Below are positions 27,579 through 32,180 of a stretch of DNA of 35,433 nt, one piece after another. The notes under the pieces are model-generated. The model had not been told where the DNA came from. It ran no database searches and worked only from the letters and a program-made list of their open reading frames with translations. The first letter of the stretch is position 1. Every line of letters starts with the position of its first letter. The DNA is taken from the IMG/VR virus record IMGVR_UViG_3300012007_000007, positions 1 through 35,433 of that record; one strand, 5' to 3'. The stretch is from a virus. Its lineage: Duplodnaviria; Heunggongvirae; Uroviricota; Caudoviricetes. The translations under genes were made by a program, and so were the position numbers.

Positions 27579-27929
27579 TTACAGATTGTTCTTCACTATC
27601 TGCATGAGCTCTTCCATGATGTCTTCGTCGTATATCATGCGTACAGTGTCCGACATCAGCTCGTAGACCCTGAACTTTGGTCTCTCCGACATTATGGTTA
27701 GAAACTCCGGGTTCCAGTCATGGTCCTCCATTTCGGACATGACCTTCCTGGCCTTCCTGTAGGAAGTGCTCCGGTATACGCGCACGGCTTCCTTATTCTC
27801 CACTCCAAGGAACACATAAACGGAATACTCGCGTCCTACCGGAACCAGTATCCTGTCCAGGAACCTCCGCAGGAACCCCAGGAATATCCCGAGGTAGCCG
27901 GCCAGGTATATCTGCCTGCTAGGTCCCAT
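27579..27929 (-). CDS. N-terminal tag family protein
   Basis: MGPSRQIYLAGYLGIFLGFLRRFLDRILVP. Confidence 0.75.
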   Translation of the reverse strand: MGPSRQIYLAGYLGIFLGFLRRFLDRILVPVGREYSVYVFLGVENKEAVRVYRSTSYRKARKVMSEMEDHDWNPEFLTIMSERPKFRVYELMSDTVRMIYDEDIMEELMQIVKNNL

Positions 27930-28653
27930 CGGCCTTCCCGGGTCTCTTCCTGAATTTCCTCTGTGCCGGCCTGTCCATCGAGGTCGCCATCCTGGACAGT
28001 GCATCGACTATGGGAACTACCGAGCGGAAGTCCTCCGACGCCTCCCGGGAATCCACGGACATGCCCGGGATTACCCGGGATGGTTTCCGGCCTATCCCCC
28101 GGAGCACCCGGGAACGGTCTATCGCCACCTCGTCCGGGGCAACCCTTATCGTGCGCAGGCTTACCGCCCACTCGGCAATCCTGTTCCTGCGGAAGATGTG
28201 CACGGTGGACAGCTCGACGTTACCCTCGCGCTGCCCGACGTCGAGCACGTAGTCATGGTCCACGCCGACACCGTTGTCCCTGGTGAGGAAGTGCCCCTTG
28301 AGGGGCATGCAGGCAGCCACCGCGTCATACAGCGCGGCCTGCCCGGCGACCTTCCCGTACGGGAACAGCTTCTCCATGGCCGCCTGCACCAGGCGGTTTC
28401 CGGCCTCCAGCACGGCGTGGTCTGACGACGGCTCCCAGTCCGCCAGCTTGCGGAGCATGGATACGAGCTCCGGGTCCGCCGAGGAGGTTGTCTTGACGGG
28501 TATCTTGGGGGGCGACTTGGGGGGCGACTTGGTGGGCGACTCGGGGGGCGACTCGGGGGGTTCCTCGGATTTCCCCGGGAGTTCCCGGGGCTTAGCCGGT
28601 TTCCTGCGGAGCCTGATGACTCCGAACTTCTTAACTGCCGTTTCTTTCTTCAT
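27919..28653 (-). CDS. hypothetical protein with Pro/Ser/Lys repeat linker (leaderless)
   Basis: ATG 5 nt after class I motif. Confidence 0.7.
   Translation of the reverse strand: MKKETAVKKFGVIRLRRKPAKPRELPGKSEEPPESPPESPTKSPPKSPPKIPVKTTSSADPELVSMLRKLADWEPSSDHAVLEAGNRLVQAAMEKLFPYGKVAGQAALYDAVAACMPLKGHFLTRDNGVGVDHDYVLDVGQREGNVELSTVHIFRRNRIAEWAVSLRTIRVAPDEVAIDRSRVLRGIGRKPSRVIPGMSVDSREASEDFRSVVPIVDALSRMATSMDRPAQRKFRKRPGKADGT
28505..28560 (-). repeat. 12-bp tandem repeat encoding PPES/PPES/PTKS/PPKS/PPK
   Basis: (gggggcgactyg)n, about 4.5 copies. Confidence 0.85.
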
Positions 28654-28856
28654 GCCACAAATATAGCAAAGTTGCTGAATGATTGCCATAGAAAAGCGAA
28701 ATCCATCGCCTCGGCGATGGACTTGTTCAGGTGCTTGATTTTTCTCGTGTACTTCTTCCTGTCCCGGACTATCCTGGTCCGGAGCGTGGCGCCGTTGCCG
28801 GTGCCGGCAATCCGTTCCTCCCGGAGTCTCCGGGATTCTTTCGCTTTCTTGGCCAT
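28650..28856 (-). CDS. ArfA/BrfA-like alternative ribosome rescue factor
   Basis: AGGAGG RBS; MAKKAK...LRTRIVRDRKKYTRKIKH then a hydrophobic tail; terminator inside the ORF. Confidence 0.6.
   Translation of the reverse strand: MAKKAKESRRLREERIAGTGNGATLRTRIVRDRKKYTRKIKHLNKSIAEAMDFAFLWQSFSNFAIFVA
28659..28670 (-). promoter_or_regulatory. class I promoter motif
   Basis: TTTGCTATATTT-GTGGC-ATG. Confidence 0.75.
28692..28721 (-). terminator. intrinsic terminator inside the ArfA-like ORF
   Basis: TCCATCGC-CGAG-GCGATGGA-TTTCGCTTTT on the minus strand. Confidence 0.75.
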
Positions 28857-28889
28857 TGGTTTTCCTCCTGTTCGGTGAAAGTTTATAAT

Positions 28890-28905
28890 AAATATAGCAT
28901 AAACT
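28890..28905. promoter_or_regulatory. interlocked divergent promoters: TGCTATATTT (-) and ATAAACT (+)
   Basis: aaatatagcataaact. Confidence 0.65.
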
Positions 28906-28927
28906 GTCTGAAAGAAGGAGAACCCCG

Positions 28928-31016: not shown

Positions 31017-32180
31017 ATGGAAAACTTACAAAAAACTTACAATAAGCTCCCGAACAAGTGGCTGAACTGCGCCATACCGGGAGTCGCGCTGACAACCTGC
31101 ATAGGCTCGGTCTACTGCTGGAGCCAGTTCTCGGCCAACCTGATGGAGGCCTTCGGGATATCCCGGTTCGCCACGGACATCGGGTTCACGCTCATCATAT
31201 TCTTCCTCGGGATGTTCGCCGCCCTGTTCGGGAGCACCATAGAGAGGAACCCCCGGGTGGGCGCCTGGATTTCCACCGCGGTATTCATCACCGGCTTCAT
31301 CCTGCTCGGGGTAGCCGTAATGACCGGTACGCTCCCGCTGTTCTACGTGGCTACCGCCACCATCGGGGCAGGAACCGGAATCGGCTACGTAACTCCCGTA
31401 AAGACCCTGATGGCGTTCTTCGCGGGCCACAAGGGGATGGCCTCCGGTCTCGCCATAACGGGATTCGGCCTGGCAAAGTTCATCGCCTCCCCTGTTATCG
31501 AGTGGCTATTGGCCACGGTGCCGCTCCATACCATGTTCTTCATGATGGGCGGAATCTATGCCGCGGTCATGACCGCATCCGCCATGCTCCTCAGGAAGCA
31601 CCCCGACTGCACCGGGACGTGCAGCAGGTACGACATGTTCAGCTACAGGTACATGCTGAAGATGAAGGAGTGGTGGGCGATATGGTTCATGTTCATGGTG
31701 AACATATCCTGCGGACTCGCCATCATATCCCAGGAGAAGTCCCTGCTTCTCGCACTGGGCATCGCCAGCGTGGCGGCAATCCTTTCGGGGACCGCCCTGG
31801 CCAATGCCGGGGGAAGGATTGGGTTCTCCACCCTGTCCGACAAGATAGGCCGGAAGGCCTCCTACCACTTCGTATGCAGCTTCGGCATAATGGGCGCCCT
31901 GTTCTGCATTACCGGGAATCCCGTGATGTGCGTAGTCGGAATCCTCCTGTGCGAGGCGGCATACGGCGGCAACTTCAGCGTGCTCCCCAGCCTGCTCGAG
32001 AAGAGGTACGGAATCAACAACGCTTCCCGCATACACGCGATGACCCTGACCGGGTGGAGCGTCGGCGGGATATTCGGGCCCCTCCTGGCCAACACGTTCA
32101 CCGGGACTACGCTATACATGGTGCTGGCAATACTCTACTTCATCGCCTTCACCGTGATGGAGATGAACGTCAGGAAGTAG
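31017..32180 (+). CDS. MFS transporter, oxalate/formate antiporter (OFA, YhjX-like) family
   Basis: About 12 TM; CIGSVYCWS, GIGYVTPVKTLM, GMASGLAITGFG, NAGGRIGFSTLSDKIGRK, YGGNFS. Confidence 0.9.
   Translation: MENLQKTYNKLPNKWLNCAIPGVALTTCIGSVYCWSQFSANLMEAFGISRFATDIGFTLIIFFLGMFAALFGSTIERNPRVGAWISTAVFITGFILLGVAVMTGTLPLFYVATATIGAGTGIGYVTPVKTLMAFFAGHKGMASGLAITGFGLAKFIASPVIEWLLATVPLHTMFFMMGGIYAAVMTASAMLLRKHPDCTGTCSRYDMFSYRYMLKMKEWWAIWFMFMVNISCGLAIISQEKSLLLALGIASVAAILSGTALANAGGRIGFSTLSDKIGRKASYHFVCSFGIMGALFCITGNPVMCVVGILLCEAAYGGNFSVLPSLLEKRYGINNASRIHAMTLTGWSVGGIFGPLLANTFTGTTLYMVLAILYFIAFTVMEMNVRK

What the first reader, a model, noticed from the sequence alone, without database searches (positions are those of the whole stretch)
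28650..28856. Phage ArfA/BrfA-like ribosome-rescue factor made from non-stop mRNA
The 68-aa basic ORF has RTRIVRDRKKYTRKIKH, recalling the ArfA RKGKH and BrfA KH motifs. Right after it a perfect 8-bp stem plus U-tract (28692-28721) lies inside the reading frame, about 40 nt before the stop, and the remaining codons give a hydrophobic tail. B. subtilis brfA (internal terminator) and E. coli arfA (RNase III site) make non-stop mRNA, so the protein accumulates only when tmRNA is overwhelmed. A phage copy with this circuit would sense and relieve ribosome stalling from host mRNase defences.
Basis: partly seen in the sequence, partly recalled or inferred. Interest (0 to 1): 0.78.

Follow-up and report, generated by a model that had tools for sequence, protein, structure and literature searches.

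The report
Phage ArfA-like rescue factor, non-stop mRNA
A rumen jumbo phage, probably of Fibrobacter, carries a small basic protein related to the bacterial ribosome-rescue factor ArfA, and as in arfA its message appears built to end at a terminator before any stop codon, so the protein should build up only when the cell's main rescue system (tmRNA) is overloaded.

Summary

**Gene layout.** ORF 28856..28650 (-) has its own promoter and a strong Shine-Dalgarno site. It contains an 11-bp hairpin plus U-tract (28724..28690) with no stop codon before it. The codons after the hairpin run over the next gene's promoter.

**Comparative evidence.**
- Across 73 distinct phage and Fibrobacter copies, 98.4% of hairpin base-pair cells pair, and one position shows CG, AU, UA and UG.
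- Synonymous sites in the stem are frozen.
- Conservation and codon periodicity vanish right after the U-tract, and tails end at random (2-90 codons).

**Distribution.** The gene is chromosomal in 66 of 91 Fibrobacteraceae genomes. A published survey found no arfA in that phylum group.

**Relationship to ArfA.** Direct searches against ArfA fail. The family links to DUF7230 at 97.8% hhalign probability. A Pseudoalteromonas phage protein that passes both the ArfA and DUF7230 Pfam models links it to E. coli ArfA. Only the C-terminal LRxRV…Y-x-R-K-x-K-H part aligns. The KGKGS insert is absent and the N-terminus is different.

**Verdict.** This is a divergent ArfA-type factor made from non-stop mRNA, probably captured from the host. 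Rescue activity, 3' ends and tmRNA control are inferred, not shown.

The parts
28885..28912 (-). Promoter of the small gene. It contains the phage's recurrent motif TGCTATATT (28899..28891), followed by ATAAACT.
   Evidence: Sigma-70-like scan hit TTCAGA-16-TATTAT. The motif occurs 13 times in the window against 0.09 expected and 54 times in the 222-kb genome, usually just upstream of a start codon.
28864..28869 (-). Shine-Dalgarno AGGAGG, 7 nt before the ATG at 28856.
   Evidence: Read directly from the sequence.
28722..28856 (-). Conserved coding part, codons 1-45. It holds the N-terminal KE..R..RIAGTxNGATL block and the basic LRTRxVRDRKKYTRKIKH motif.
   Evidence: Invariant or near-invariant columns in 35 homologues. 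Diversity at codon positions 1/2/3 is 0.225/0.157/0.486 over 77 loci. 128 clusters were found by profile search.
28699..28724 (-). In-frame hairpin: 11 pairs, core 8 bp, loop CGAG. It encodes S46-I-A-E-A-M-D52.
   Evidence: Terminator scan. Fold dG -18.5 kcal/mol, z -2.6. 73 distinct loci show 98.4% paired cells, 3 pairs with changes on both sides, and 35-57% pairing in slid controls.
28690..28701 (-). U-rich tract UUUCGCUUUUCU. The predicted transcript 3' end falls within codons 54-55, giving a product of about 53-55 aa.
   Evidence: Columns 31-38 of alignment A3 are at least 90% conserved T/C-rich. The position of termination is inferred, not mapped.
28650..28689 (-). Unconstrained tail of the ORF (LWQSFSNFAIFVA, stop TGA at 28652..28650).
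   Evidence: Protein conservation collapses here. Diversity is 0.69/0.70/0.70 at the three codon positions. Tail length runs 2-90 codons, median 23, across 80 loci.
28660..28668 (-). Promoter motif TGCTATATT of the next gene. It lies inside the ORF tail, 6 nt before ATG 28653.
   Evidence: The same TGCTATATTtgtggcATG arrangement is seen at more than 10 other genes of this phage.
27919..28653 (-). Downstream gene (244 aa, unknown function, PESPP/KSPP repeats). It has its own promoter, and its ATG overlaps the TGA of the small ORF.
   Evidence: ORF list. No Pfam or PHROG family.

Best explanation
The gene encodes a divergent ArfA-type alternative ribosome-rescue factor, very likely captured by a Fibrobacter jumbo phage from its host together with its regulatory terminator.

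Proposed sequence of events:
- Transcription starts at the promoter at 28899..28891 and ends at the hairpin plus U-tract (28724..28690). This lies inside the reading frame, with no stop codon upstream.
- While host tmRNA-SmpB has spare capacity, the ~54-aa product is tagged and degraded.
- When trans-translation is saturated, for example when many mRNAs are cut during infection, the untagged peptide is released and accumulates.
- Its basic C-terminal segment (LRTRIVRDRKKYTRKIKH) then probes the empty mRNA channel of ribosomes stalled on truncated mRNA, as the homologous segment of ArfA does.
- The conserved N-terminal block (RIAGTxNGATL) recruits a host release factor to hydrolyse the peptidyl-tRNA.

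Shown here: the anatomy of the transcription unit, selection on the RNA hairpin, loss of coding constraint after it, the family's range, and homology of the C-terminal module to ArfA.

Inferred: the 3' end, tmRNA control, ribosome binding, release-factor recruitment, and the benefit to the phage.
For: Anatomy:
- Own promoter, Shine-Dalgarno site, in-frame hairpin plus U-tract, then the next gene's promoter inside the ORF tail.

Selection on the RNA:
- In 73 distinct loci, 98.4% of pair cells pair. Pair 13-26 occurs as CG 45, AU 13, UG 11, UA 4. Pair 9-30 occurs as AU 31, GU 30, GC 10. Slid controls give 35-57%.
- The compensatory changes force radical residue swaps (I/M to L/R, L/G, F/E).
- Synonymous sites in the stem are frozen, while the loop and upstream third positions vary.

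No coding constraint after the U-tract:
- Diversity is 0.69/0.70/0.70.
- Tails are 2-90 codons, median 23, close to the ~21 expected from random sequence.

Short relatives:
- Relatives with an ordinary stop end 3-9 residues after KHK. This marks the functional C-terminus.

Homology:
- A1 against DUF7230 members: 97.8% probability, E 1e-12.
- A1 against the Pseudoalteromonas phage J2-1 protein: 94.7%, E 6e-8. BLASTP against the window protein: 2e-6.
- The J2-1 protein passes PF03889 (41.3 bits) and PF23876 (28.6 bits). It matches E. coli ArfA at 1e-10 and solved ArfA chains at 1e-5.
- DUF7230 member L008 against ArfA member L055: BLASTP 7e-8.

Same architecture in true ArfA:
- PF03889 members fetched here (L056, L140, L141) carry in-ORF terminators right after the basic motif, and L055 has a plain stop.

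Host side:
- The gene is present in 66 of 91 Fibrobacteraceae genomes, mostly single copy, with the same hairpin.
- Those genomes have tmRNA, RF1 and RF2 and no PF03889 hit over cut-off.

Literature:
- brfA and arfA are made from non-stop mRNA, and a Lys-His contact with 16S U534 is shared by both (PMC6881298).
Against: - No direct sequence method links the window protein to ArfA or BrfA. Pfam ArfA gives no hit at E<=10. BLASTP against E. coli ArfA gives nothing. The profile against all PDB chains, which include ArfA, gives nothing at E<=10. hhalign of A1 or A2 against a shallow ArfA alignment gives only P 0.013-0.015, probability 3%.
- Homology covers only about 21-31 residues of a lysine/arginine-rich segment.
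- ArfA's KGKGS insert is missing, and the N-terminal 24 residues have no counterpart in ArfA. Release-factor recruitment is therefore unproven.
- The U-tract is interrupted by CGC/CCC, so termination efficiency is unknown.
- Many phage relatives have a normal stop, so the non-stop circuit is not essential to the protein.
- Fibrobacter also has an ArfB-like ORF, so a second back-up factor is not strictly needed.
- The AlphaFold model is uninformative (pLDDT 66, pTM 0.22).
Confidence: 0.72

Rival explanations
1. An ordinary small basic ribosome- or nucleic-acid-binding protein with no rescue function. Its gene simply runs into its own terminator. Read-through or termination after a downstream stop gives the working protein, and the missing stop is tolerated rather than selected.
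For: - No direct hit to ArfA or BrfA.
- Many relatives have a plain stop and no hairpin.
- The basic Y-x-R-K-x-K-H motif could bind any RNA.
- Three PHROG families holding such proteins are annotated 'unknown function'.
Against: - 80 of 82 hairpin-type loci keep the frame open through the hairpin, yet have random tails with no codon periodicity.
- A stop codon would arise easily if it were harmless.
- The same arrangement is the known hallmark of arfA and brfA, and is seen in PF03889 members here (PMC6881298).
- The bridge sequences tie the motif specifically to ArfA.
Confidence: 0.13
2. A phage (and host) factor that occupies the empty mRNA channel of stalled ribosomes but blocks rather than rescues them. 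It could be a competitor of tmRNA-SmpB or a hibernation-like factor, with the non-stop design serving only to tune its level.
For: - Only the channel-binding module is homologous to ArfA.
- The N-terminal block is unrelated to ArfA's release-factor-contacting region.
- The phage heavily remodels translation, with 31 tRNA genes.
Against: - The gene is a near-core, single-copy chromosomal gene of Fibrobacter. That fits a housekeeping back-up better than an inhibitor.
- Feedback through trans-translation makes sense for a substitute of tmRNA, not for its competitor.
Confidence: 0.08
3. The hairpin is mainly an RNA processing or attenuation signal (RNase III site, or a terminator controlling read-through into the 244-aa downstream gene). 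Its overlap with the ORF is secondary.
For: - E. coli arfA uses RNase III as well as termination (established knowledge).
- The TGA/ATG overlap with the next gene could allow coupling on read-through transcripts.
Against: - The downstream gene has its own promoter 6 nt before its ATG.
- In Fibrobacter the downstream genes differ (folE in L136), while the hairpin stays fixed to the small ORF in the same codon phase.
- Cleavage in the hairpin would also give a non-stop mRNA, so this is a variant of the main explanation rather than a true rival.
Confidence: 0.05

Closest known systems
E. coli ArfA (Pfam PF03889) and its proteobacterial relatives
   Same: - Small size: about 55 aa mature in E. coli, about 54 aa predicted here.
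- Basic C-terminal module hydrophobic-R-x-R-V ... Y-x-R-K-x-K-H at almost the same residue numbers.
- An in-ORF hairpin or terminator right after that motif, so the mRNA has no stop. This is seen in PF03889 members L056, L140 and L141.
- An unconserved hydrophobic tail.
- Coexistence with tmRNA, RF2 and an ArfB-like gene.
   Different: - No hit to the Pfam model.
- The KGKGS insert is absent.
- The N-terminal 24 residues (KE..R..RIAGTxNGATL) are unrelated to ArfA's N-terminus.
- It is found in Fibrobacterota and their phages, not Proteobacteria. The published survey found arfA in 0 of 1,956 FCB genomes (PMC11633108).
Phage proteins annotated ArfA: Pseudoalteromonas phage J2-1 ATN93434.1, and Citromicrobium phage RXM g10
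   Same: - Phage-borne.
- J2-1 shares LFRTRVERDKTKYRRKKKHK with the window's LRTRIVRDRKKYTRKIKH: BLASTP 2e-6, hhalign 94.7%.
- J2-1 also lacks KGKGS.
   Different: - J2-1 passes Pfam ArfA and has an ArfA-like N-terminus.
- J2-1 has an ordinary stop and no in-ORF hairpin.
- RXM g10 is known only from an annotation sentence (PMC8953757). It was not examined here.
Pfam DUF7230 (PF23876), with PHROGs 2701, 6310 and 18092 (all 'unknown function')
   Same: - The window family is a sub-family at profile level: hhalign 97.8%. The window itself scores 17.6 bits.
- Bacterial members L008, L010 and L011 also carry GC-rich hairpins inside the ORF right after KHK.
   Different: - The window protein is below the Pfam cut-off (27 bits).
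- It has an extra conserved N-terminal block.
- DUF7230 has no assigned function. This report argues that it overlaps ArfA.
Bacillus subtilis BrfA
   Same: - The same logic: an intrinsic terminator inside the coding region, a product of about 62 aa from non-stop mRNA, control by trans-translation, and a Lys-His contact with 16S U534 (PMC6881298).
   Different: - No detectable sequence similarity. The profile search of the PDB chain set found nothing at E<=10. That BrfA is in that set rests on my knowledge of entry 6SZS.
- BrfA has N-terminal helices of its own.

Membership tests
ArfA (PF03889) | Match to the family's profile above the curated cut-off | tested here: not met
   No ArfA hit at E<=10 for the window protein. 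Fibrobacter copies hit only DUF7230, weakly. hhalign of A1 or A2 against the ArfA alignment gives P 0.013-0.015, probability 3%.
ArfA (PF03889) | Homology of the C-terminal basic, mRNA-channel-binding segment (…R-x-R-V…Y-x-R-K-x-K-H) | tested here: met
   Shown transitively. A1 against the J2-1 protein: 94.7%, E 6e-8. J2-1 against PF03889: 41.3 bits. J2-1 against E. coli ArfA: 1e-10. J2-1 against PDB ArfA chains: 1e-5. L008 against L055: 7e-8. K41 and H42 are at least 90% conserved.
ArfA (PF03889) | KGKGS motif | tested here: not met
   A three-residue gap falls at this place in every alignment.
ArfA (PF03889) | mRNA lacks an in-frame stop because of a hairpin or terminator inside the ORF | tested here: met
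   Met at the level of sequence comparison. The hairpin is conserved and covaries, the frame stays open through it in 80 of 82 loci, and there is no coding constraint beyond it. Actual 3' ends were not mapped.
ArfA (PF03889) | Recruits RF2 to non-stop ribosomes and triggers peptidyl-tRNA hydrolysis | not testable with these tools
   Needs biochemistry. The N-terminal region that would contact the release factor is not alignable to ArfA.
ArfA (PF03889) | Protein level repressed by tmRNA-SmpB; synthetic sickness or lethality with ssrA | not testable with these tools
   tmRNA is present in 5 of 5 Fibrobacter genomes checked. The phage has no tmRNA or SmpB.
DUF7230 (PF23876) | Match to the family profile | tested here: inconclusive
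   The window scores 17.6 bits against a cut-off of 27. Profile-profile comparison to 12 members that all hit PF23876 gives 97.8%, E 1e-12. One close homologue carries the precomputed domain.
BrfA | Sequence similarity to B. subtilis BrfA | tested here: not met
   The profile of A1 against all PDB chain sequences gives no hit at E<=10.
BrfA | Rho-independent terminator inside the coding region upstream of the stop | tested here: met
   compared with the description in PMC6881298.

The most novel reading that the evidence does not exclude
DUF7230, together with PHROGs 2701, 6310 and 18092, may be a large unrecognised branch of ArfA-type rescue factors carried by many phages and mobile elements across phyla. 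On this reading, jumbo phages of Fibrobacter keep the host's non-stop 'tmRNA-overload sensor'. The factor would then be made exactly when RNA-cleaving defences or the phage's own mRNA turnover flood the cell with truncated messages. That would make it a counter-measure that restores ribosome supply during infection.
Probability: 0.3. Interest if true: 0.8.

Novelty: new variant of a known kind. Interest (0 to 1): 0.62.

Why it matters
RF-dependent rescue factors made from non-stop mRNA are known from Proteobacteria (ArfA), the Bacillus subtilis group (BrfA) and Francisella (ArfT). The latest survey of 15,259 genomes found no arfA in the Fibrobacterota-Chlorobiota-Bacteroidota group (PMC11633108).

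This finding would matter in three ways.
- It places a divergent ArfA-type gene, with the same self-limiting circuit, in most Fibrobacter genomes and in their jumbo phages.
- It gives a function to a domain of unknown function (DUF7230) and to three 'unknown' phage protein families.
- It shows that a regulatory RNA element and its tiny ORF can move between host and virus as one unit.

For phage biology, it suggests that ribosome rescue is a resource phages manage, alongside their tRNA sets. For rescue biology, the new N-terminal block offers a natural variant for asking how such peptides recruit release factors.

Tried and rejected
Led nowhere:
- Direct Pfam, NCBIfam and BLASTP comparison with ArfA.
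- Profiles of A1 and A5 against PDB sequences.
- tblastn of the window protein and of ArfA member L055 against GenBank phages.
- The ESM Atlas search, which gave only a DUF7230 lead.
- Rfam.
- The AlphaFold model, which shows no fold (pLDDT 66). I therefore ran no fold search.
- Attempts to widen the ArfA alignment: one query was too short, one had no shared words, tiny orders were sampled, and the genome scan returned only Enterobacteriaceae. The ArfA profile stayed shallow, which limits.

Considered and rejected:
- The hydrophobic tail as a functional peptide or type I toxin-like membrane segment. Rejected because tails are unconserved and, in this phage, encoded by promoter DNA.
- The ORF as non-coding. 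Rejected because the core shows clear third-position bias.
- Stop-codon recoding in the phage. There are no suppressor tRNAs among its 31 tRNAs, and long ORFs are open under table 11.
- Gene neighbourhood as a functional clue in Fibrobacter. The neighbours in L136 are a methylase and folE, which is uninformative.

Full report
**What is there**

On the minus strand an ORF runs from ATG 28856 to TGA 28652..28650 (68 aa). AGGAGG lies 7 nt upstream of the ATG. Residues 26-42 read RTRIVRDRKKYTRKIKH.

Codons 46-52 (S-I-A-E-A-M-D) are written on a hairpin. The core stem is UCCAUCGC/GCGAUGGA, the loop is CGAG, and the stem can extend to 11 pairs at 28724..28699. It is followed by UUUCGCUUUUCU (28701..28690). 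The terminator scan picks it up. It folds at -18.5 kcal/mol, z = -2.6.

**The transcription unit**

The window is the first 35 kb of a 222-kb virus record. The 9-mer TGCTATATT occurs 13 times in the window against 0.09 expected. It occurs 54 times in the genome, nearly always as tttTGCTATATTTGtggcATG just before a start codon, and often just after a hairpin plus T-run. It resembles the TAnnTTTG box of Bacteroidota-type promoters, a point that rests on established knowledge. A similar TTCTATATTTGG sits upstream of the Fibrobacter intestinalis homologue.

- One copy (28899..28891) lies upstream of the small ORF.
- A second copy (28668..28660) lies inside the ORF's tail, 6 nt before the ATG (28653) of the next gene.

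The layout is therefore promoter, Shine-Dalgarno site, 45 conserved codons, terminator, next promoter, next gene. The last residues of the ORF (FAIFVA) are promoter DNA read in frame. This also explains why close relatives share them.

**The family**

A word-indexed search found 41 homologues. A full profile search found 128 clusters at 50% identity. Loci were fetched from viral, metagenome and genome collections. Two forms exist.

- Short forms end with an ordinary stop 3-9 residues after KHK and have no hairpin.
- Hairpin forms continue as K-S-[ILF]-A-x-A-[MGRE]-D-F-[AP]-F, and then diverge completely in sequence and length.

Over 77 loci, nucleotide diversity at codon positions 1/2/3 behaves as follows:

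| Region | Position 1 | Position 2 | Position 3 | Reading |
|---|---|---|---|---|
| Core | 0.225 | 0.157 | 0.486 | coding |
| Hairpin plus U-tract | 0.18 | 0.07 | 0.23 | constrained at all positions |
| Next ten codons | 0.69 | 0.70 | 0.70 | no coding constraint |

Tails after the hairpin are 2-90 codons, median 23, as expected if the first chance stop ends them. In 80 of 82 hairpin-type loci the frame stays open through the hairpin.

**The hairpin is selected as RNA**

In 73 distinct 54-nt segments (A3), 98.4% of pair cells form standard pairs. With the 3' arm slid by 1-3 columns the figure is 35-57%.

- Pair 13-26 occurs as CG 45, AU 13, UG 11, UA 4, with none unpaired.
- Pair 9-30 occurs as AU 31, GU 30, GC 10.
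- No shuffle reached the observed covariation score.

These changes force paired residue swaps that make no sense for a protein but keep the stem: I/M, L/R, L/G, F/E, F/R. The loop and the synonymous site next to it vary freely. The U-rich run after the stem is conserved.

**Host and origin**

The hairpin form with RIDGSQNGATLRTR… is a chromosomal gene of Fibrobacter.

- About 65 species-level genomes carry it in the contig scan, including F. intestinalis ATCC 43854.
- 66 of 91 Fibrobacteraceae genomes carry it, mostly as one copy.

The phage-type copies (RIAGTGNGATLRTR…) sit on viral contigs of 48-355 kb.

The phage gene core is 72-78% identical in DNA to the chromosomal copies. A neighbouring phage MFS-transporter gene (31017..32180) is 64-73% identical to Fibrobacter genes. 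This points to Fibrobacter as host and to capture of the gene together with its terminator. Both points are inference; the direction of transfer was not tested by a tree.

Fibrobacter genomes have tmRNA, RF1, RF2 and a short RF-1-domain ORF (ArfB-like). They have no PF03889 hit over cut-off. The phage has 31 tRNA genes, no tmRNA, no SmpB, no release factor, and a single copy of this gene.

**Relation to ArfA**

Direct tests fail.
- Pfam gives only a sub-threshold DUF7230 hit.
- BLASTP against E. coli ArfA gives nothing.
- The profile against PDB chains gives nothing.
- hhalign against a shallow ArfA alignment gives P 0.013-0.015. It does align exactly LRTRIVRDRK---KYTRKIKH with [21 protein letters not shown].

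Bridges succeed.
- The family matches twelve DUF7230 members at 97.8%, E 1e-12.
- DUF7230 member L008 (Sedimenticola) matches PF03889 member L055 at BLASTP 7e-8.
- The Pseudoalteromonas phage J2-1 protein, annotated ArfA, passes both PF03889 (41.3 bits) and PF23876 (28.6 bits).
- That protein matches E. coli ArfA at 1e-10 and solved ArfA chains at 1e-5.
- It matches the window protein at 2e-6, and profile A1 at 94.7%.

The homologous part is the C-terminal basic segment, which in ArfA lies in the empty mRNA channel. The Lys-His contact with 16S U534 is reported as shared by ArfA and BrfA (PMC6881298). The KGKGS insert is missing, and the N-terminal block has no ArfA counterpart.

**The same design in known factors**

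PF03889 members fetched here show the same two forms. L056, L140 and L141 carry strong terminators inside the ORF right after the basic motif (encoded as PRFDPxDRGFF). L055 has a plain stop. Bacterial DUF7230 members L008, L010 and L011 also have GC-rich hairpins in frame after KHK. brfA has an internal rho-independent terminator, and its product accumulates only without trans-translation (PMC6881298).

**Mechanism proposed**

The transcript ends in the U-tract, within codons 54-55. Ribosomes stall at the 3' end. tmRNA tags and destroys the product while it has capacity. When tmRNA is saturated, the ~54-aa peptide accumulates and binds ribosomes whose mRNA channel is empty. With a release factor, it frees them.

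Shown: the anatomy, the RNA selection, the loss of coding constraint, and the homology of the C-terminal module.

Inferred: the 3' ends, tmRNA control, ribosome binding, release-factor recruitment, and the benefit to the phage (more free ribosomes when mRNAs are being cut).

**Novelty**

Phage genes annotated ArfA exist (J2-1; RXM g10 in PMC8953757), and the non-stop circuit is textbook for arfA and brfA. Three things are new.
- A divergent branch in Fibrobacterota, where the survey found arfA in 0 of 1,956 FCB genomes (PMC11633108).
- Its jumbo-phage copies keep the non-stop circuit.
- It links DUF7230 and three 'unknown function' PHROGs to ArfA.

No paper mentions DUF7230.

Noticed in passing
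window, 13 sites (e.g. 8572, 17323, 27315, 30959, 33422); 54 in the 222-kb genome: Recurrent promoter-like motif tttTGCTATATTTGtggcATG. The ATG of many genes lies 6-7 nt after it, which implies leaderless or near-leaderless mRNAs. It is often preceded directly by a hairpin plus T-run, forming terminator-promoter modules.
   Followed up: partly
window 28873-28899 (-): Upstream of the small ORF, the TGCTATATT motif is followed at once by ATAAACT.
   Followed up: no
genome G000:C1:154379-169318 (outside the window): A cluster of 31 tRNA genes on the minus strand. There is no tmRNA and no suppressor tRNA (aragorn).
   Followed up: partly
window 31017-32180 (+): A 387-aa MFS transporter gene (Pfam MFS_1). 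It is 73% identical in DNA over 1.1 kb to one Fibrobacteraceae genome and 64-69% identical to many others. It is a host-derived auxiliary gene and a clue to the host.
   Followed up: partly
window 28502-28561 (within gene 27919-28653, -): Tandem GGGGGCGACT(T/C)GG repeats encoding PESPP/KSPP repeats. Short stretches of 47-60 nt match several Fibrobacter genomes at 87-94% identity. This may be shared low-complexity coding sequence; it was not examined as possible CRISPR targets.
   Followed up: no
L008 (Sedimenticola MAG), L010 and L011 (Rhodospirillales MAGs), L005/L006 (Helicobacter): Bacterial DUF7230 genes with GC-rich hairpins inside the ORF immediately after KHK. In Helicobacter the hairpin spans the stop codon. 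This suggests that non-stop regulation is widespread in DUF7230.
   Followed up: partly
L069-L136 (Fibrobacter genomes): A near-core chromosomal small gene of Fibrobacter (66 of 91 family genomes) with the same in-frame terminator. In F. intestinalis ATCC 43854 it sits between a DNA methylase gene and folE. A few genomes carry two copies.
   Followed up: partly
L001 and L122; L002: A phage-type copy (L001) and a chromosomal-type copy (L122) lie in the same Fibrobacter MAG, while an almost identical phage-type contig (L002) was binned into a Prevotella MAG. This is probably phage contigs mis-binned into MAGs.
   Followed up: no
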